DNA of 19,746 nt from a virus (IMGVR_UViG_2671180921_000033:1-19746); one strand, 5' to 3'. Shown: positions 384 through 18,325, counted from the stretch's first letter. Program-made: numbers and translations. Notes: a model not told the origin generated them from the letters alone.

Positions 384-458
<75 letters not shown>

Positions 459-461
459 ATA

Positions 462-537
<76 letters not shown>

Positions 538-4587: not shown

Positions 4588-4920
4588 TTACGACACCTTC
4601 CTGAAAATTGCCAGCGGTGTCATACCATAGGAAGTTCCTCTCCTCCCAATCATTTCCCGAATACCTTCAAGCATATAATCTATTGCAGATCTGATTTCGT
4701 TAGAAGGAATTTCTGGCTCTGAAACAGTCTCGTCACTTATATCCGGGAGCGCATCTATAACACCGATGACATACCATTCACCACGTATTCTTGAACCATA
4801 CTTTAATGCAAGATTTCCCACATCCAAAGCTAAATCATCAGCCTTGACCGACATCCAGAATATATTTTCTTGATCATCAAGAAGCTCTATCTGTGTAGAG
4901 AACGGGAGTAAAGAAAACAT
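4588..4920 (-). CDS. Hypothetical protein (110 aa), third gene of an AT-rich 3-gene cassette
   Basis: ORF starts 13 nt after the stop of the upstream gene. Acidic protein (MFSLLPFSTQIELLDDQENIFWMSVKADDLALDVGNL...). No family recognised. Confidence 0.5.
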   Translation of the reverse strand: MFSLLPFSTQIELLDDQENIFWMSVKADDLALDVGNLALKYGSRIRGEWYVIGVIDALPDISDETVSEPEIPSNEIRSAIDYMLEGIREMIGRRGTSYGMTPLAIFRKVS

Positions 4921-4933
4921 GTTAGCAGCAATT

Positions 4934-5416
4934 TTAGTATGATAAATTTCTTCTTGAATGTTTTTTTTTCTGATTTGGTGATTTAGTCTGCTTTAGCTCT
5001 TTTCGTTTTGCATCTTTATACATAGGAAAAACATCATGAGCCATTTTCACATCAAATAATTTGATATGCCCTTTTACCATCACCAGACTTCCAATTTCTG
5101 CATTTTCTAAGCTCGTTGCCACCAAGCCTTGTTCGTGCAACTTATCAAAAAAATTTAATGGTAAAGACCATGATGAGTCAAAATGCCGCTCTTGCGTTCT
5201 TGCAAAAGAATCACCCGCATTTTTCCTGGCATTAAATAATGAAACGCCACCTTTAAGTTCATTTAATGAATGCTCAGAACTGGACGAGATTTGTTTTACA
5301 GCATTCAATACTCCCGATGGAAATAATTGCGCAGTGAAGTAACCTACGCGCTCTTTGTCAAGATAAAGGTAATCAAATAGTGAATCTACAGCTTGACAAT
5401 CTTGATCCATTGGCAT
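4934..5416 (-). CDS. Hypothetical protein (about 160 aa), second gene of the AT-rich 3-gene cassette
   Basis: Start ATGCCAATGG preceded by SD AAAGAGGTG, overlapping the upstream small ORF by 44 nt. Lys-rich C-terminal tail. No family recognised. Confidence 0.5.
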   Translation of the reverse strand: MPMDQDCQAVDSLFDYLYLDKERVGYFTAQLFPSGVLNAVKQISSSSEHSLNELKGGVSLFNARKNAGDSFARTQERHFDSSWSLPLNFFDKLHEQGLVATSLENAEIGSLVMVKGHIKLFDVKMAHDVFPMYKDAKRKELKQTKSPNQKKKHSRRNLSY

Positions 5417-5552
5417 GCACCTCTTTGATCCTTGCTTTTTCCTCAGCAATTTTTCTTTGCTTTTCTTCGATTTCATCATACATCAATTGCATTTCAGCGA
5501 TGTCGAACGGCTTTGAACCACTTTTAAGCGATCTCACCAGTTTGCGGATCAT
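5373..5552 (-). CDS. Small hypothetical protein (59 aa), first gene of the AT-rich 3-gene cassette
   Basis: ATG at 5552 preceded by SD AGAGGGGA. Translation MIRKLVRSLKSGSKPFDIAEMQLMYDEIEEKQRKIAEEKARIKEV. Below the ORF-track length cutoff. Confidence 0.35.
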   Translation of the reverse strand: MIRKLVRSLKSGSKPFDIAEMQLMYDEIEEKQRKIAEEKARIKEVHANGSRLSSCRFTI

Positions 5553-5692: not shown

Positions 5693-5848
5693 TTACTCCT
5701 CAGGTTCGTAAGCTGTGAAGACAGCGACCTCCGTCTGGCCGGTTCGGATTCGTACCTCGCAGAGGTCTTTCCTCGTTACCAGTGCCGTCACAATGACGGT
5801 TAAACAGATGACGATCAGGGCGATTAACATCGCCTTTTGCTGCTTCAT
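5693..5848 (-). CDS. hok: Hok/Gef-family type I toxin
   Basis: Translation MKQQKAMLIALIVICLTVIVTALVTRKDLCEVRIRTGQTEVAVFTAYEPEE (51 aa) has the Hok signature: TM helix then RK-LCE-R-G-EVAAF. SD AAGGAGAAG precedes the ATG. Confidence 0.8.
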   Translation of the reverse strand: MKQQKAMLIALIVICLTVIVTALVTRKDLCEVRIRTGQTEVAVFTAYEPEE

Positions 5849-5894
5849 AGCCTGCTTCTCCTTGCCTTTCGGCACGTAAGAGGCTAACATCCAT
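5700..5894 (-). CDS. mok-like overlapping reading frame (translational coupler for hok)
   Basis: 64-codon frame starting at ATG 5894 and overlapping hok almost entirely, as in hok/mok/sok loci. Start choice within the 107-codon ORF-track frame is uncertain. Confidence 0.35.
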   Translation of the reverse strand: MDVSLLRAERQGEAGYEAAKGDVNRPDRHLFNRHCDGTGNEERPLRGTNPNRPDGGRCLHSLRT

Positions 5895-5965
5895 ATGTCT
5901 AGCATGAAATTGGCCTAAGTTTAATATTAAACGTCTTGCGGGACGCGTAATGTTAACTGGGCTTT
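5895..5965 (+). ncRNA. Possible Sok-like antisense RNA (approximate coordinates)
   Basis: Candidate plus-strand promoter TTGCCT - 17 nt - TAACAT (5862..5890) facing into the hok/mok leader. Ends not defined; inferred from hok/sok architecture. Confidence 0.2.
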
Positions 5966-6245
5966 TCTCTATCTGCCGTTGGTGTTCATGCCCGAGGCAG
6001 ATAGCCTCAAGCACACGCAGCAATTTTACTTAACTATTTTTCCGAAAAATTAATTATTACTAATGCATAGTTTATAAATCACACGATGATATTATAAATC
6101 TAGTGTAAGGGAACATTTAAGTTAAGAATCACATTTTACTAGCCAAAAACATAAAACAGATCTCTTAATAATAAGCAGCTTTTATATAAAAACCACGATG
6201 TGTTTTCATAATAATATGCAGTACCAGCTACTCAGCAATATGAGG

Positions 6246-6764
6246 TTATTCAGTCAAGCTTTTGCGCCCGTACGCACTTCTCAAACTTGCACATGTTTCT
6301 CTAATCCTAACAATTTGCATACAATCAGGTCTTAGAGGTCGGTTGTGAACATCACTATCATATGTCATGGCTTGGCGTAATTCCTTAAACAATTTTGCCT
6401 TATATTTTTCACCACCGGCCCTTTCAATTTCTTTAGCGATAGTAGTTAAACTCTTAACCTCCCTACTCATTTTTGCTAACGCCAGTGTAGGTTCTTTATT
6501 ATTATCTTCAGCCCAGAACTCTAAGGCAAAATCCTCAAGCAACTCCAGTTTTTGTCTAAACTCACCGATCCATTCATTATGAGCATCTTTAATAGCATCT
6601 CCTCTACTTTTTGTGGTTTGGAGATAAGCAATATATGCCGTAATCCCCCATCCAACTAAAACTAAAAACCAAGTTACATACTGATTTTCATCTTTAAACA
6701 AAGAAAAAAACTTACACCAAAAGTCTGCACTCCAAGTACAGACCTGGATACTTGAATTAGCCAT
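6246..6764 (-). CDS. Single-pass membrane protein (172 aa), fourth gene of the STAS/GHKL cassette
   Basis: Hydrophobic helix WFLVLVGWGITAYIAYL near the N-terminus, followed by a charged helical region. Its start overlaps the upstream gene stop as ATGGCTAA. Confidence 0.55.
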   Translation of the reverse strand: MANSSIQVCTWSADFWCKFFSLFKDENQYVTWFLVLVGWGITAYIAYLQTTKSRGDAIKDAHNEWIGEFRQKLELLEDFALEFWAEDNNKEPTLALAKMSREVKSLTTIAKEIERAGGEKYKAKLFKELRQAMTYDSDVHNRPLRPDCMQIVRIRETCASLRSAYGRKSLTE

Positions 6765-7071
6765 GAGATACCTTTATAGCGTCCTCGATATATTCATTTA
6801 TCTCGTCAATTAACTCAGGTTCTTCTTCTGAGATAAATTTAATCCCTTTAACCTTATCAGGACTCACGCCACGCCTAATCAATCCGCCAAAGCACTCCTC
6901 CAAGAAAGAAGAACCATACCCCTCCGTTCCATCAAGGTCTATTGTTAGATCTGGTGAATGTTTAAGCTCTCTTTCTACCCACTCACGAAACTCCTCACCA
7001 GAAGCGGGCCCCAATCTTTTAAAACGAGGTCCTGGGCAAGGATAACGACTGGCTACTTTTATAATTTTCAT
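6757..7071 (-). CDS. Small STAS-like (DUF4325-like) protein, 104 aa
   Basis: ATG at 7071, 1 nt after the GHKL gene stop. Segment DLTIDLDGTEGYGSSFLEECFGGLIRRG resembles the STAS-like core of anti-sigma-antagonist-type proteins. The domain call is by eye. Confidence 0.45.
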   Translation of the reverse strand: MKIIKVASRYPCPGPRFKRLGPASGEEFREWVERELKHSPDLTIDLDGTEGYGSSFLEECFGGLIRRGVSPDKVKGIKFISEEEPELIDEINEYIEDAIKVSHG

Positions 7072-7072
7072 A

Positions 7073-7552
7073 CTACTCAGTTTCCACCTCACAAGGAATT
7101 GTCCATTCAATTATAGTACCATTAACAGAGCTTTTGTAATCTCTAAGCACTTCGTTAATAATGCCAGTTTTCCCTTTGTAAATATAGCGCCCTTTTGATG
7201 AAAAAATCCCCATAAAACCATCACCTATTGAATCGATTACCGATTTGATATCATTCAAGCCTTTACCTCGGTTCAGCTCCCCAGTCCTCGTTTCCTGAAG
7301 TAACGTGGAAGCCTTTATATAAGTAGAATCCTTTACATTTGCTAATGGAACTCTAAGTTTTTTGAAGATGTTCATTAGCACACTTACACCTTGTGTTTTA
7401 GGCAATGTTGAAGGTATTCCCACTCCTTTATCACATATTACCACTGTAAGATTTTTGTCATGTATGCCAGCAAAGGTCCACCACTTAGCTGTTTCGTCAT
7501 CTTCCGTATGCATTAAATCATCAACATAAGCATGCTCGACAGAATTAGACAT
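7073..7552 (-). CDS. GHKL-family ATPase, anti-sigma-factor/serine-kinase-like (159 aa)
   Basis: Bergerat-fold motifs in order: N-box NSVEHAY, G1 VVICDKGVGIP, G2 RGKGLNDI, G3 NGTIIEW. Size similar to RsbW/SpoIIAB-type kinases. Confidence 0.65.
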   Translation of the reverse strand: MSNSVEHAYVDDLMHTEDDETAKWWTFAGIHDKNLTVVICDKGVGIPSTLPKTQGVSVLMNIFKKLRVPLANVKDSTYIKASTLLQETRTGELNRGKGLNDIKSVIDSIGDGFMGIFSSKGRYIYKGKTGIINEVLRDYKSSVNGTIIEWTIPCEVETE

Positions 7553-7556
7553 GGCC

Positions 7557-8240
7557 TCAGTAAAGCCACGGTATAATTTTTTTTGATGATTTTCTTTCTA
7601 ACTCTTTTTTTATTTCCACCATCATTTCTTTTGCTAAAAGAGGCTCAGAACAAGAACCTGATGTATATTTCCAAAAAGTCACATCATCATAACTTTCAGT
7701 TTCTCTTTTAGGTTTCCTTAATAGATCATAGAAACCGACTTGATTCAAAATGCTTTCAATTTTCTTGTCTTTCGGATGTGAAAACCCTATGGCATTTACT
7801 CCAAATTCACTTTTCTTAATAAGCACATCAACTTCAGCGAGAAAAGATAACATAGCAGCTGCACTTATATATTTAGTTGAAGAAAAATCTATATAAACAC
7901 GATTATTCTTCAACACGCAATCGCGTAAATTATTTAAAAATTTATTCATGATTTCAAAATCACGATCGTTGTAATAATTAATAGATATCGGAGCAGAAAA
8001 AACCACCCTTTTATTACTTGTTGTCAACTTTTTCTTCGAGACTCGTAGCTTACGAGTGCGTTTGTAATATTCCAGTTTTCTCTTCGCATTTTCTACTCCT
8101 TCCCAATCCGTGCTTTTCAGAGAATTAAATATCCCCCTCTTCAGTTTCGAAACTTGCCCGCGATAGTTTAGTTTTTGAACTTTTCTTCTTTTTTGCAGAT
8201 TCATAAATATTTTCACATTTGATAACATCGCAGATATCAT
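7557..8240 (-). CDS. Protein with a basic N-terminal region and a STAS-like domain (227 aa), first gene of the cassette
   Basis: Lys/Arg-rich N-terminus (KRRKVQKLNYRGQVSKLKRG...KRTRKLRVSKKKL), then RVYIDFSSTKYISAAAMLSFLAEVDVL...NAIGFSHPKDKKIESILNQVGFYDLL, which resembles a STAS/anti-sigma-antagonist fold. No clear SD, so the start is uncertain. Confidence 0.5.
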   Translation of the reverse strand: MISAMLSNVKIFMNLQKRRKVQKLNYRGQVSKLKRGIFNSLKSTDWEGVENAKRKLEYYKRTRKLRVSKKKLTTSNKRVVFSAPISINYYNDRDFEIMNKFLNNLRDCVLKNNRVYIDFSSTKYISAAAMLSFLAEVDVLIKKSEFGVNAIGFSHPKDKKIESILNQVGFYDLLRKPKRETESYDDVTFWKYTSGSCSEPLLAKEMMVEIKKELERKSSKKIIPWLY

Positions 8241-8476
8241 ATTTCACATGAAAAATTTTTTGTAGCCCCTCCATCAAAGAAAATCGCTGCCTTTATCAAA
8301 AACATTTCGAAATTGTCAGCAACTTAACGTTCCCCCACCCCAACAGTAAAATTGATCCCACTAGCTCAAGTGAAAGTCACCCCGTAACATCCTGTTGATA
8401 CCCAGCGCCTGCGCTTTCGCTCTTACAGCATAACAAGAACGATCGATCCCCCATATGCTTTCTACCGTCAACGTGC

Positions 8477-8938
8477 CTACACACTGACCTGAGTGCCATG
8501 ATTTCCCTCATGCATAACCTGTTCACCGAATACCTCTCGAAAACCATTCTGGTAAAACGCCAGTACGCGCTGCATAGCTTCGCTCCTCCGACACTCGCGA
8601 CAGATTATGTTCAGACGCCTGTCATAGCGGCGTATTTCTCCGTCTGGTAATGAATAAACCAGGTCCGGGTCGCTCTTTTTTTTCACTGCTGCTTTCGACA
8701 TCTTTTTGCGGGCCTTTATCCAGTCCTTACGTGCCTGTTCAGACGGAAATAACCCGTAGCCGGAGTTGTATAAATCGCCACTGGCAACCAGCTCTCTGGC
8801 AAGAACACTCATCAGATACCTTGTCGCACCTGTCTTAGCTTCCAGTTGTCGTAACGTCTCGCGCCCACTCTGGCGCACGAGCTCAACAACCTTCCCCTTA
8901 ATTTTTTCCCGCTCTTCTTGTGTAAATACTTTTGCCAT
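8477..8938 (-). CDS. Hypothetical nin-region phage protein (154 aa)
   Basis: ATG at 8938 preceded by SD GGAGG. Co-oriented with the replication genes. No family recognised. Confidence 0.5.
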   Translation of the reverse strand: MAKVFTQEEREKIKGKVVELVRQSGRETLRQLEAKTGATRYLMSVLARELVASGDLYNSGYGLFPSEQARKDWIKARKKMSKAAVKKKSDPDLVYSLPDGEIRRYDRRLNIICRECRRSEAMQRVLAFYQNGFREVFGEQVMHEGNHGTQVSV

Positions 8939-8953
8939 AAGCGCCTCCGGCAA

Positions 8954-15871: not shown

Positions 15872-18325
15872 ATGAACGCTGATAATAAAGAAATTGCACT
15901 ATATTACGAAGCCAAAAATGACAAAGTCAGAAAACGCCTTGGAATTAAAGGCGGTTTTTGCTGGCGCACAGCAAAAAAATTATCGGTTGCAATATCACAC
16001 GGTATTGTCGCAATGGACGATGCCGGATTTGACGAAGAGGATTTTAAAAAACCCGTCCGCGTCCATTTACCCGTTGTGAATGACCTTCCTCCGGAAGGCG
16101 TGTTTGATACCGAATTCTGCAACCGATACGAAAAAGGCGGGGAAGATGGTATCACAATGGTACTTATCGCACCCTCGCCCTCTGTTCAGGACAAACCAGC
16201 CAGCACTGACAATACCAACGTCAACGGCGAAGACATGACTGAGATTGAGGACAATATGCTTCTGCCGGTTTCAGGTCAGATTCTGCCTGTTCGATGGCTG
16301 GCACAGCACGGCAGCGAAAAACCGGTCACGCACGTTTCACGGGACGAGCTGCGCGCATTACATAACGCACAGGAAGAAAAACTTCCCACTGTTACCGTGC
16401 TGGCCATCTCAAATAAAGCAGTGCAACTCGAACCGCTGGAGATTCGGGATTTGTACAAACTGGTGCGGGACACTGACAAGGTTTTTCCCGCCCCCGTAAA
16501 TTCAGACCTGGGGTTTATGACCGCCTTCATCGAAGCATACCTGGACGCTGACTACACCGATCGCGGTCTGCTTACAAAAGAGTGGATGAAGGGAAATCGT
16601 GTTTCGCGCATCAGCCGCACACCATCCGGCGCTAACGCTGGCGGCGGTATTCTTACCGATCGCGGCGAAGGTTTTGTACACGATAGTGCATCACTGGCGC
16701 GCGACGTAGCCACTGGCGTGCTGACCCGCTCAATGGACGTGGACATTTACAATCTTCATCCCGCGCACGCTAAACGCATTGAGGAAATTGTCGCTGAAAA
16801 TAAACCTCCCTTTTCTGTGTTTTTCAGCAAATTCATCACCATGCCTGGCGGGATGGACTATTCCCGCGCCATCGTGGTTGCCTCCGTGAAAGAAGCACCG
16901 GTTGGTATAGAGGCTATGCCCCACCGCGTCACCGAATATCTGAATAAAGTGCTGACCGAAACCGATCATGCCAACCCTGATCCGGAAATCGTGGATATTG
17001 CCTGCGGTCGCTCCTCCGCCCCGATGCCGCAGCGTGTAACAGAAGAAGAAAAACAGGATGATGAAGAAAAACCGCAACCATCTGGTGCAATGGCAGATGA
17101 ACAGGCAACGGCTGAAGCAATGGAGCCGGATACAACTGAACATCGCCAGAACACGCAATCGCTTGATGCTCAGGCACAGGTAAATTCTGTTGATGCGAAA
17201 TATCAGGAACTGCGGGCAGAACTCCATGAAGCCCGGAAAAACATTCCATCAAAAAATCCTGTCGATGCCGATAAATTGCTTGCTGCATCACGTGGTGAAT
17301 TTGTTGAGGGGATTAGCGACCCGAACGATCCGAAATGGGTGAAGGGGATTGCAACACACGATACTGTGAACCAGTGCCAGCAAGAATCGGAACAGAACGA
17401 CCAGAAAGCGGGACAAAACAGCCCGGATGCGCAACAAAACGAGCCAGAAGCGATACATCCGGAGCCGGAAGCGCAACACGTGCAGGAAAAACCATGTAAT
17501 GCTTGCGGGAAACATGGCGGCGGCAACTGCCCTGACTGTGGCACAGTGATGGGTGACGCAACACACCAGGAAATGTTCAATGAAGAGAATCAGCCTGAAG
17601 TTCAGGAAAATAATCCGGAGGAAATGGAAGGCTCTGCGCATCAGCACAAGGAGAACTCTGGTGGCAATCAGCATCATGCCAGCGATAGTGAAACTGGCGA
17701 GACGGCAAATCCCTTAATTAAGGTGACTGGTCATCATAAATATAAGTCCACCAGCAAAACGTGGTATCACCTGATGATCGACCTTGAGACGATGGGAACC
17801 AACACCAATGCGCCCATCGTGGTTATTGGGGCGGTTTTCTTCGACCCGCAGACAGGGAAAATCGGGCCGGTATTTTATATCGTTATCAGTCTGACTGACG
17901 CAATGAATACAGGAGCTGTTCCTGACGGTGGAACCATCGAATGGTGGCTGAAGCAGTCCAGTGAAGCCAGAGCTGCCATTTTAACAGACCAGGTGAAACT
18001 GAAAGATGCCCTTTTGCGCTTTCGGGAATTCGTCAATGAACACTCTGATGAAAAATTCGTTCAGGTGTGGGGGAATGGTGCAACGTTCGATAACTCAATT
18101 TTGCGCACCTCATACGAACGCCTGGGCATCCCCTGCCCGTGGCATTACAGCAACGATCGTGATGTACGCACGATCGTTGAGCTGGGGAAAACCATAGACT
18201 TCAATGCCAGAAGCGTAATTCCATTCGAAGGCGTACCCCACAATGCGCTGGATGACGCCCTTCACCAGGCAAAATACGTTACAGCCACTATTCAAAAACT
18301 GATCCCGAGTCAGGCTGATTTTTAA
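15872..18325 (+). CDS. RecE-like large protein whose C-terminal domain is a DEDDh 3'-5' exonuclease (817 aa)
   Basis: N-terminal two-thirds resemble, from memory, the Rac RecE N-terminal region (for example [50 protein letters not shown]). The last roughly 190 aa carry DEDDh motifs [20 protein letters not shown] and [12 protein letters not shown]. Confidence 0.7.

What the first reader, a model, noticed from the sequence alone, without database searches (positions are those of the whole stretch)
6246..8240. Four-gene STAS / GHKL-kinase / STAS-like / membrane-protein cassette in the prophage nin region: candidate undescribed partner-switching system
Four co-oriented minus-strand genes are packed with 4-nt, 1-nt and overlapping (ATGGCTAA) junctions inside an AT-rich block that interrupts the replication-to-Q operon. 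Gene 1 (7557..8240) has a K/R-rich N-terminus and a STAS-like segment (RVYIDFSSTKYISAAAMLSFL). Gene 2 (7073..7552) has all four Bergerat ATPase motifs (NSVEHAY, VVICDKGVGIP, RGKGLNDI, NGTIIEW) and is the size of RsbW/SpoIIAB serine kinases. Gene 3 (6757..7071) is a roughly 100-aa STAS-like/DUF4325-like protein (DLDGTEGYGSSFLEECFGG). Gene 4 (6246..6764) is a single-pass membrane protein. The arrangement recalls an RsbR-RsbT-RsbS stressosome module with a membrane output, but sits where lambdoid prophages carry defence or abortive-infection morons. I do not recognise it as a named system.
Basis: partly seen in the sequence, partly recalled or inferred. Interest (0 to 1): 0.85.

Follow-up and report, generated by a model that had tools for sequence, protein, structure and literature searches.

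The report
Broken kinase–STAS–membrane prophage defence cassette
The "four-gene" cassette is really a conserved three-gene prophage unit: a serine-kinase-like ATPase (split here by one extra base), a small STAS protein with an invariant serine, and a single-pass membrane protein. It is an untested relative, with a different third gene, of the VapKSC anti-phage system published in 2026.

Summary
The ORFs, the AT-rich block, the Bergerat motifs and the DUF4325 match are real. "Gene 1" and "gene 2" are two halves of one gene. The window carries one extra base in a homopolymer (T8 at 7577-7584; T7 in 24 other complete E. coli genomes). Those genomes encode a single 376-aa "ATP-binding protein".

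The intact protein models as a basic helical hairpin, a STAS-topology domain and a GHKL domain. Its closest solved folds are the anti-sigma serine kinases SpoIIAB and RsbW. A profile comparison links both domains to VapK (97%, E 1e-10). Gene 3 is Pfam DUF4325, like VapS, and its Ser54 aligns with the VapS phospho-site Ser48 in 43 of 43 sequences.

The order kinase, DUF4325, ~150-180-aa protein is kept in all 48 testable viral loci; most third proteins have an N-terminal membrane helix. The unit sits in classic prophage defence positions: the P2 old/tin hotspot, between cI and int, after cI-like repressors, and in a P4-like satellite. Rousset et al. 2022 listed a homologous cassette as an untested hotspot system.

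Best reading: a phosphorylation-gated system in which the membrane protein replaces the VapC nuclease as effector. This copy is probably inactive. It is a new variant of a known kind, of moderate interest.

The parts
7073..8204 (-). One kinase gene (STAS + GHKL serine-kinase-like ATPase; 376 aa when intact), frameshifted in this window into ORFs 7557..8240 and 7073..7552. The start follows PGAP's call in UMNF18 (MNLQKRRK...); an alternative upstream ATG at 8240 gives 388 aa.
8010..8204 (-). N-terminal lysine/arginine-rich helical hairpin of the kinase (residues 1-65). I suggest it is a nucleic-acid-binding or regulatory element; that is inference.
   Evidence: helices 3-31 and 34-50, pLDDT about 88-94. 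(charge count). (basic in all family members). (the VapK alignment starts only at residue 70).
7656..8009 (-). STAS-topology alpha/beta domain of the kinase (residues 66-183), containing the segment RVYIDFSSTKYISAAAMLSFLAEV.
   Evidence: strand/helix order beta-beta-alpha-beta-alpha-beta-alpha-beta. (aligned to the N-terminal domain of VapK, which PMC13373217 describes as STAS). No independent fold match was obtained, and there is no significant profile match to DUF4325.
7577..7584 (-). Frameshift site: an A8 run on the coding strand (T8 on +), against A7 in the aligned intact relative. It ends the upstream reading frame at 7557 and leaves L210-A217, including catalytic E216, in neither product.
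   Evidence: position and run length. (read-through in UMNF18...SSKKLYRGFTEAMSNSVEHAY...). (the 159-aa fragment WP_244498983.1 is on 9 contigs from NCBI, ENA and Logan; intact forms are on well over 100).
7073..7640 (-). GHKL (Bergerat) ATP-binding domain of the kinase (residues 189-376 of the intact protein), interrupted by the frameshift. Motifs: N-box EAMSNSVEHAY, G1 CDKGVGIP, G2 NRGKGL, G3 NGTIIEW.
   Evidence: invariant motif residues. (GHKL fold matches). (sub-threshold HATPase_c_2 and HATPase_c hits that span the junction). (hhalign to VapK, 94.8%).
6757..7071 (-). STAS-like DUF4325 protein (104 aa), the predicted kinase substrate. It has an acidic C-terminal helix (EEEPELIDEINEYIEDA; net charge -8 over residues 80-104).
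   Evidence: PF14213, E 5.6e-12. (VapS matches the same Pfam family, E 2.7e-17). (alignment with VapS). (charge).
6910..6912 (-). Codon of Ser54 in the motif GYGSSFLEE, the predicted phospho-acceptor. It aligns with VapS Ser48.
   Evidence: Ser in 43 of 43 aligned sequences, VapS included. PMC13373217 (S48 is required for VapKSC defence, and S48E releases VapC). Codon position read.
6246..6764 (-). Single-pass membrane protein (172 aa). It has a short N-terminal segment, a TM helix at about residues 29-51 (window 6612-6680) and a roughly 120-aa cytoplasmic four-helix bundle. It is the predicted effector.
   Evidence: AF2 pLDDT 79; best 19-residue Kyte-Doolittle mean 1.73, starting at residue 30. 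(conserved family). (always the third gene). (only generic helical-bundle fold matches).
5906..8476 (.). Low-GC inserted block (moron) that carries the cassette and its flanking non-coding DNA, between the DUF977 gene (8477..8953) and the hok/gef toxin gene (5693..5905).
   Evidence: GC 0.34-0.37 against about 0.51. (the whole block is in only 24 of 5426 complete E. coli genomes, while about 2000 genomes share only the 140-bp hok-side flank). (DUF977 and Hok/gef).

Best explanation
The region is one three-gene, horizontally acquired prophage cassette. It encodes (1) a 376-aa kinase with a basic helical hairpin, a STAS domain and a SpoIIAB/RsbW-type GHKL serine-kinase domain, (2) a 104-aa STAS-like DUF4325 protein, and (3) a 172-aa single-pass membrane protein with a cytoplasmic helical bundle.

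It is a distant relative of the VapKSC anti-phage system, with the membrane protein in place of the VapC nuclease. The proposed mechanism follows.
- In uninfected lysogens the unphosphorylated STAS protein holds the membrane protein inactive (inferred).
- A cue from phage infection activates the kinase (inferred). The cue is possibly a nucleic acid sensed through the STAS/GHKL interface or the basic hairpin.
- The kinase phosphorylates Ser54 of the STAS protein. The site and the kinase type are shown by homology; the reaction itself is inferred.
- The membrane protein is released and damages or depolarises the membrane, which aborts the infection. This resembles lambda RexAB in logic (inferred).

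In this window a +1 insertion in an A-run splits the kinase and removes its catalytic Glu. This copy is therefore most likely switched off. That outcome is harmless to the host if the kinase is the activator.
For: Single gene and frameshift.

Kinase type:
- GHKL motifs are invariant.
- The AF2 model has pLDDT 83.9.

Relation to VapK: hhalign against the VapK family gives 97.0%, E 1.1e-10, over 269 columns covering both domains.

STAS partner: DUF4325, like VapS. Ser54 aligns with VapS S48 and is invariant in 43 of 43 sequences.

Published mechanism for the module: CapK phosphorylates CapS. In VapKSC, the phosphomimetic VapS S48E no longer binds VapC or neutralises its toxicity. The operon gives about 2-log protection against phage Bas42 (PMC13373217).

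Unit conservation:
- 48 of 48 IMG/VR loci with enough downstream DNA have kinase, then DUF4325, then an ORF of 149-179 aa.
- 39 of those 48 third ORFs match the gene-4 profile.
- The other 9 are 164-168 aa with an N-terminal TM helix.
- The same order holds in Cronobacter, Vibrio, Raoultella, Citrobacter, Marinobacter phage AS1 and Francisella phage KIRK.

Defence-type positions:
- The P2 gpA/portal old-tin hotspot (with PMC9122126).
- Between 186-type cI and int.
- Directly after S24 cI-like repressors.
- A P4-like satellite.
- Next to a type I restriction gene.

Prior listing: a hotspot candidate in Rousset 2022.

Family size: 3394 cluster representatives at E <= 1e-3.
Against: - No experiment exists for this cassette.
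- No protein hits any PADLOC model.
- The third protein has no recognisable toxin or pore domain and gives only generic helical-bundle matches.
- In the most divergent clade the third protein is not detectably homologous to gene 4.
- STAS binding to the membrane protein was not tested, because no complex prediction was available.
- The aromatic residue needed for ssDNA sensing in VapK (F54) aligns to a non-conserved column here, so the trigger may differ.
- In Rousset's system 69 the first serine of the motif is Arg (YGRSF), so the acceptor may shift by one residue in some clades.
- The copy in this window is frameshifted, so nothing can be said about its activity in this strain.
Confidence: 0.6

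Rival explanations
1. The cassette serves the prophage's own life cycle rather than defence. For example, it could be a phosphorylation switch that times lysis or controls lysogeny and induction through a holin- or antiholin-like membrane protein.
For: It is always phage-borne and often sits in the immunity region next to cI, cro and int. The third protein is a small single-TM protein, as some holins and antiholins are. CapK-type kinases respond to DNA damage, which is also the induction signal (PMC13373217).
Against: The cassette sits at very different positions in different phage types: the P2 old/tin hotspot, the nin-like region here, a P4-like satellite and beside an integrase. It is present in only 24 of 5426 complete E. 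coli genomes. That is the behaviour of an accessory moron, not a core lysis or lysogeny function. It is not next to the lysis genes. The P2 and P4 sites are experimentally established anti-phage hotspots (PMC9122126).
Confidence: 0.12
2. The membrane protein is the input (sensor or anchor), not the output. It would detect envelope perturbation or DNA injection and control the kinase. The output would then be phosphorylation or sequestration of a host or phage target by the kinase/STAS pair.
For: The third protein has no toxin signature. It is replaced by a non-homologous protein of the same shape in a divergent clade. The kinase has an extra basic hairpin of unknown role. In classical partner switching the STAS protein frees the kinase to bind another partner.
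Against: No other output protein is conserved in the unit. In the one characterised three-gene relative the third gene is the effector and the STAS protein is its inhibitor (PMC13373217). In known phage-defence operons small TM proteins are usually effectors (PMC9122126).
Confidence: 0.15
3. One reading: four separate proteins (STAS protein, small RsbW-size kinase, second STAS protein, membrane output) forming a stressosome-like RsbR-RsbT-RsbS module.
For: Four ORFs exist in this window. A stand-alone 193-aa GHKL-only kinase with its own DUF4325 and TM partners does exist next to a full cassette in Vibrio fluvialis, so small kinases of this family are viable.
Against: The ORF 1/ORF 2 split results from one extra base in a homopolymer. 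It is absent from 24 of 24 complete-genome relatives, and the homologues are single proteins. ORF 2 starts inside the N-box helix and lacks E216. The Vibrio stand-alone kinase has about 50 residues before its N-box. No RsbR-type sensor domain, phosphatase or sigma factor is present.
Confidence: 0.03
4. The A8 run is an assembly error and the strain actually carries an intact, functional cassette.
For: The frameshift lies in a homopolymer. A second accessory gene 2.6 kb away (DUF6414) is also split at a homopolymer, T9 at 4961-4969. That pattern is typical of homopolymer miscalls.
Against: The exact truncated products occur on several independent public contigs. The 159-aa fragment is on 9 contigs from NCBI, ENA and Logan. 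The 227-aa fragment is on 2 Logan contigs, which are assembled directly from public sequencing runs. This suggests a real allele in one lineage.
Confidence: 0.2

Closest known systems
VapKSC (VapK kinase, VapS STAS antitoxin, VapC PIN toxin); Chambers et al., EMBO J 2026, PMC13373217
   Same: - Three-gene operon in the same order: kinase, small STAS protein, third protein.
- The kinase has STAS + GHKL domains, and a profile comparison aligns both (97%, E 1.1e-10).
- The STAS protein belongs to the same Pfam family, DUF4325, with the serine at the VapS S48 position and a C-terminal helix after the STAS core.
- It occurs near defence genes and in mobile elements.
   Different: - The third gene encodes a single-pass membrane protein, not a PIN nuclease.
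- The kinase carries an extra ~65-residue basic helical hairpin.
- Pairwise similarity to VapK is only 23% over the GHKL domain (E 0.83).
- The VapK ssDNA-sensing residue F54 aligns to a variable column.
- No experimental data exist.
CapK/CapS regulators of immune operons (same paper)
   Same: A GHKL kinase with an internal STAS domain phosphorylates a conserved serine on helix 2 of a STAS partner encoded just downstream.
   Different: - CapS carries a winged-helix DNA-binding domain and represses a downstream immune operon; gene 3 here is 104 aa with no such domain.
- CapK has an N-terminal HTH rather than a basic hairpin.
- No CBASS, Bub or Thoeris operon follows the cassette.
SpoIIAB-SpoIIAA and RsbW-RsbV partner-switching pairs
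   Different: There is no sigma factor and no PP2C phosphatase. The kinase is fused to its own STAS domain. The system is phage-borne. The output is a membrane protein.
Rousset et al. 2022 P4-hotspot system 69, 'HATPase_c | DUF4325' (Table S1B of PMC9122126)
   Same: - The kinase is homologous (E 8.9e-35 to the family profile).
- The DUF4325 protein is homologous (E 8e-20).
- The third protein has one TM helix and a similar size.
- 'hypothetical + hypothetical + DUF4325' arrangements are also listed for the P2 hotspot.
   Different: It is a catalogue entry only. DUF4325 occurs only in the two hotspot inventory tables among the supplementary files searched, so I found it in no list of cloned systems. 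Its third protein is not detectably homologous to gene 4. Its motif reads YGRSF instead of YGSSF.
Lambda RexAB (functional analogy only)
   Same: A prophage-encoded cytoplasmic sensor paired with a membrane protein. In several relatives the cassette lies directly downstream of the cI repressor, as rexAB does. The proposed outcome is membrane depolarisation and abortive infection. The Rex biology is from my own knowledge.
   Different: There is no sequence or fold relationship. RexB has four TM helices. Rex has no kinase or STAS component.

Membership tests
GHKL / Bergerat-fold ATPases, SpoIIAB/RsbW-type serine kinases | N-box (E...N...H), G1 (DxGxG), G2 and G3 motifs | tested here: met
   E216, N220, H224, D258, G260, G262, R312-G-K-G315 and G362-T363 are invariant in 45 sequences. 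In this window the N-box is cut by the frameshift, and E216 is in neither product.
GHKL / Bergerat-fold ATPases, SpoIIAB/RsbW-type serine kinases | Bergerat fold closest to the anti-sigma-factor kinases | tested here: met
GHKL / Bergerat-fold ATPases, SpoIIAB/RsbW-type serine kinases | Pfam HATPase_c or HATPase_c_2 match above the curated cut-off | tested here: not met
   The intact E. coli protein scores 17.1 and 15.6 bits against cut-offs of 27.4 and 26.4. ORF 2 alone gives no hit. Some homologues do carry precomputed PF13581 or PF02518 hits.
GHKL / Bergerat-fold ATPases, SpoIIAB/RsbW-type serine kinases | Serine-kinase activity on a STAS partner | not testable with these tools
   Needs a biochemical assay.
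STAS-like DUF4325 (PF14213) | Profile match above the gathering score | tested here: met
   45.6 bits against a cut-off of 23, E 5.6e-12.
STAS-like DUF4325 (PF14213) | Conserved Ser/Thr at the start of helix 2 (phospho-acceptor) | tested here: met
   Ser54 is present in 43 of 43 aligned sequences, including VapS S48. Exception noted: Rousset system 69 has R-S at this position.
VapKSC | VapK-like kinase with STAS + GHKL domains | tested here: met
   hhalign of family against family: 97.0%, E 1.1e-10, A1 positions 70-375 against VapK 13-290. The homology is remote; BLASTP gives E 0.83.
VapKSC | VapS-like STAS protein with a C-terminal inhibitory region | tested here: inconclusive
   Same Pfam family and the same serine. 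A conserved acidic C-terminal helix is present. Its role and its partner were not tested.
VapKSC | VapC (PIN-domain) toxin as the third gene | tested here: not met
   Gene 4 has no PIN match in Pfam, NCBIfam, PHROGs or PADLOC. It models as a TM helix plus a helical bundle.
VapKSC | Conserved aromatic residue for ssDNA activation (VapK F54, CapK W68) | tested here: not met
   F is invariant in the VapK family. It aligns to position 112 here, which is Tyr in E. coli but K, F, L, Q, S or others elsewhere in the family.
VapKSC | Protection against phage | not testable with these tools
   Needs plaque assays.
CapK/CapS transcriptional regulators | CapS has a winged-helix DNA-binding domain, and the pair lies upstream of an immune operon | tested here: not met
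   Gene 3 is 104 aa and consists of DUF4325 only. It is followed by gene 4 and then hok, with no immune operon.
RsbR-RsbS-RsbT stressosome | Separate RsbR and RsbS STAS proteins with an RsbT kinase, a downstream PP2C phosphatase and a sigma factor | tested here: not met
No phosphatase or sigma factor lies in or near the cassette.
Catalogued anti-phage systems (PADLOC-DB v2.0.0) | Profile match of any component | tested here: not met
   No family matched ORFs 1-3 at E <= 1. ORF 4 gave only a chance-level Cas1 hit, E 0.026.

The most novel reading that the evidence does not exclude
The cassette is the founding example of a widespread, still untested class of prophage immunity: a phosphorylation-gated membrane effector. 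The family has about 3400 cluster representatives at 50% identity and occurs in P2-like, 186-like and lambdoid phages, in P4-like satellites and in marine phages. In this reading a SpoIIAB-type kinase with its own basic hairpin sensor detects a cue other than the ssDNA sensed by VapK. It phosphorylates a STAS 'antitoxin' and releases a new kind of single-pass membrane killer, giving a kinase-driven functional equivalent of lambda Rex.
Probability: 0.4. Interest if true: 0.65.

Novelty: new variant of a known kind. Interest (0 to 1): 0.5.

Why it matters
If the model holds, the kinase-STAS switch just described for CapKS and VapKSC is a general, modular trigger. Phages would plug it into different effectors, here a membrane protein.

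The cassette would then become a testable defence candidate that sits in the best-known prophage hotspots of enterobacteria. It would offer a tractable case of serine-phosphorylation signalling in bacterial immunity. It would also explain a recurrent 'ATP-binding protein / STAS-like protein / hypothetical protein' trio in RefSeq annotation.

The frameshift matters in practice. Anyone cloning from this strain would obtain a dead kinase and should use the A7 allele.

Tried and rejected
- PADLOC, NCBIfam and Pfam scans of the separate ORFs gave nothing for ORFs 1, 2 and 4.
- Sequence searches of the PDB with the intact kinase, with its family profile and with gene 3 found no significant match, not even to VapS or CapS.
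- BLASTP of the kinase against VapK and of gene 3 against VapS was not significant on its own. Only profile methods showed the relation.
- hhalign of the kinase N-domain against the DUF4325 alignment was not significant (probability 1.9%). Both fold searches of the whole kinase returned only GHKL matches among the hits shown. The STAS fold of the N-domain therefore rests on topology and on the VapK alignment.
- The third proteins of the divergent clade show no homology to gene 4 beyond the TM helix.
- The promoter and terminator scan found no more sites than shuffled controls and no obvious cassette promoter in 8241-8476.
- Megablast against phage genomes matched only the hok-side flank. tblastn found a single isolated phage with the cassette, Marinobacter phage AS1.
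- Literature searches for DUF4325, STAS-like + phage, GHKL + STAS + phage, partner-switching + anti-phage, and STAS domain + phage defense found no description of the membrane-protein variant.
- The validated Rousset '3 hypothetical proteins' system was considered as a possible identity. I could not link it to this cassette: DUF4325 occurs only in the hotspot inventory tables, and no PADLOC model matched.
Full report
**1. What is in the sequence**

The block is AT-rich: GC is 0.366 for 6246-8240, against about 0.51 in the replication genes upstream and about 0.52 in the genes downstream. The ORF 2/3 junction is TAG-T-ATG, and ORFs 3 and 4 overlap in ATGGCTAA. On the coding strand the block lies between a DUF977 gene (8477..8953), upstream, and a hok/gef toxin gene (5693..5905), downstream.

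**2. ORFs 1 and 2 are one gene**

- PHROG 3364, a 304-position profile, matches ORF 1 at positions 3-138 and ORF 2 at positions 157-291.
- Megablast of 5900-8560 against 5426 complete E. coli genomes finds the whole block in 24 of them at 99.7-99.9% identity. Every one of these matches is one base shorter over the query than the window.
- In E. coli UMNF18, RefSeq annotates three genes: a 376-aa 'ATP-binding protein', a 104-aa 'STAS-like domain-containing protein' and a 172-aa hypothetical protein.
- A base-by-base alignment places the only indel in a homopolymer: T8 at window 7577-7584 against T7 in UMNF18.
- All 120 listed homologues are single proteins. Most are 344-417 aa and cover most of the query, and a few are truncated or partial.
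- The window's ORF 2 begins at M218 of the intact protein, inside the N-box helix. Residues L210-A217, including the invariant E216, are in neither product.
- The truncated products are in public databases. The 159-aa fragment is on 9 contigs from NCBI, ENA and Logan, while intact forms are on well over 100. The frameshift is therefore probably a real minority allele rather than an error.
- A second homopolymer frameshift lies nearby (section 9), so an assembly artefact cannot be excluded.

**3. The kinase**

- The 45-sequence family alignment has invariant GHKL residues: E216, N220, H224, D258xG260xG262, R312-G-K-G315 and G362-T363.
- AlphaFold2 on that alignment gives pLDDT 83.9 and pTM 0.84, with three parts:
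  - a helical hairpin at residues 3-50;
  - an alpha/beta domain at 66-183, whose strand and helix order is that of STAS;
  - a GHKL domain at 189-370.
- Foldseek returned only GHKL chains among the hits shown.
- Pfam HATPase_c hits on the E. coli protein stay below the curated cut-offs.

**4. The STAS partner and the link to published work**

ORF 3 is DUF4325. A full-text search led to Chambers et al., EMBO J 2026 (PMC13373217). That paper describes two systems.
- CapK (HTH-STAS-GHKL) phosphorylates a conserved serine of CapS (STAS-wHTH) after DNA damage.
- VapKSC comprises VapK (STAS-GHKL), VapS (STAS plus a C-terminal tail) and VapC (PIN toxin).
  - VapS inhibits VapC, and the phosphomimetic S48E releases it.
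  - VapK F54 is a predicted ssDNA contact.
  - The operon protects about 100-fold against phage Bas42.

I took the VapK and VapS sequences from the paper's supplementary model file.
- VapS is DUF4325 at E 2.7e-17.
- Pairwise BLASTP between the two systems is not significant.
- The kinase family profile matches VapK at 94.8% probability.
- It matches a 24-sequence VapK family alignment at 97.0%, E 1.1e-10, over 269 columns that cover both the N-terminal domain and the GHKL domain.
- Ser54 of ORF 3, in the motif GYGSSFLEE, aligns with VapS S48 and is invariant in 43 of 43 sequences.
- The column aligned to VapK F54 is not conserved in this family.
- The first ~65 residues have no VapK counterpart.

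**5. The third protein**

ORF 4 has one hydrophobic helix at about residues 29-51, followed by a cytoplasmic helical bundle (AF2 pLDDT 79). Fold matches are generic bundles. Its family is well conserved among close relatives. The third protein of the most divergent clade has the same size and an N-terminal TM helix, but no detectable homology.

**6. The unit is conserved and sits in defence-type positions**

Fifty-one IMG/VR loci encode a relative of the kinase. Of these, 48 have enough downstream DNA to test.
- In all 48 the next ORF matches the DUF4325 profile (E <= 2e-18), and the ORF after that is 149-179 aa.
- 39 of the 48 third ORFs match the gene-4 profile.
- The remaining 9 are 164-168 aa with an N-terminal TM helix.

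The same order holds in Cronobacter, Vibrio fluvialis, Raoultella/Klebsiella, Citrobacter and a metagenomic phage. It also holds in Marinobacter phage AS1. Going by its published gene table, it holds in Francisella phage KIRK as well.

The neighbours identified are:
- P2 gpA on one side and portal plus terminase on the other, which is the old/tin hotspot (PMC9122126);
- a 186-type cI upstream and an integrase downstream;
- S24 cI-like repressors directly upstream;
- a P4-like primase;
- a type I restriction subunit.

Rousset et al. 2022 list a homologous cassette as P4-hotspot system 69, 'HATPase_c | DUF4325, 1 TM in protein 3', and list DUF4325 arrangements for the P2 hotspot. Among the supplementary files searched, DUF4325 occurs only in those two inventory tables, so I found no record that it was cloned. 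The kinase family has 3394 cluster representatives at E <= 1e-3.

**7. Mechanism**

Shown by comparison:
- a SpoIIAB-type kinase with intact catalytic motifs in relatives;
- a STAS partner with the acceptor serine;
- a strictly linked small membrane protein;
- accessory-gene behaviour in prophage defence hotspots.

Inferred by analogy with VapKSC:
- the STAS protein inhibits the membrane protein until it is phosphorylated;
- the kinase is activated by an infection cue;
- the released membrane protein aborts infection.

The trigger is open, because the VapK ssDNA residue is not conserved. The basic hairpin is a candidate sensor. In this window the kinase lacks E216, so the switch is probably stuck in the off state. 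Under the model that is harmless to the host.

**8. Verdict**

The partner-switching and defence reading is partly supported. The stressosome analogy and the claim of an unrecognised system are not. This is a new, untested variant of the kinase-STAS systems published in 2026, with a different third gene. The copy here is damaged. Interest is moderate.

**9. Side observations**

- A DUF6414 gene 1.3 kb downstream is also split at a homopolymer.
- The window carries a hok/gef toxin gene.
- Two tRNA genes lie at 384-537.
- Vibrio fluvialis carries a second, minimal cassette with a GHKL-only kinase next to the full one.

Noticed in passing
window 4588-5479 (ORFs 4934..5479 and 4588..4920, minus strand; T9 run at 4961-4969): A second AT-rich accessory gene, of the DUF6414 family (phrog_9699), is also split into two ORFs of 181 and 110 aa. 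A 94.8%-identical relative in E. coli ETEC1703 has one intact 273-aa gene. The only indel inside the gene lies next to the T9 run. Two homopolymer frameshifts within 3 kb point either to prophage decay or to homopolymer sequencing errors.
   Followed up: partly
window 5693-5905 (minus strand) and about 5900-6040: A Hok/gef-family type I toxin gene (PF01848, E 2.9e-23) lies just downstream of the cassette. The adjacent ~140 bp is the only part of the query shared with about 2000 E. coli genomes and with Stx phages, where it is annotated mokW/sokW.
   Followed up: partly
window 384-458 and 462-537 (minus strand): Two adjacent tRNA genes, tRNA-Gly (TCC) and tRNA-Thr (TGT), at the low-coordinate end of the window. 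They are possibly prophage-borne or the attachment region.
   Followed up: no
L004 8102-9455 (Vibrio fluvialis island; same in L005): Directly after a full cassette lies a second, minimal one. It has a 193-aa stand-alone GHKL kinase (family profile positions 185-371, E 3e-12) with no hairpin or STAS domain, a DUF4325 protein (110 aa) and a 147-aa TM protein distantly related to gene 4. Natural kinase-only versions of the system therefore exist, in tandem with full ones.
   Followed up: partly
Rousset et al. 2022 Table S1B, system 69 (sequence read); related loci L053-L063: In this divergent clade the STAS motif reads YGRSF rather than YGSSF. The serine aligned with VapS S48 is Arg and only the following Ser remains. 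The third protein is not detectably homologous to gene 4. This could mean a shifted phospho-site and a swapped effector.
   Followed up: partly
L065 3492-5870 (Marinobacter phage AS1, genes AS1_42 to AS1_39): This is the only isolated, sequenced phage in the INPHARED set that carries the full cassette (kinase E 1e-109, STAS 8e-31, TM protein 1.5e-20 to the family profiles). All three genes are annotated as hypothetical. The cassette sits next to the Cro/CI switch and could serve as an experimental model.
   Followed up: partly
window 15872-18325 (plus strand): An 817-aa ORF with a long acidic, low-complexity middle part lies upstream of the integrase gene (18616 onward). I did not examine it.
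   Followed up: no
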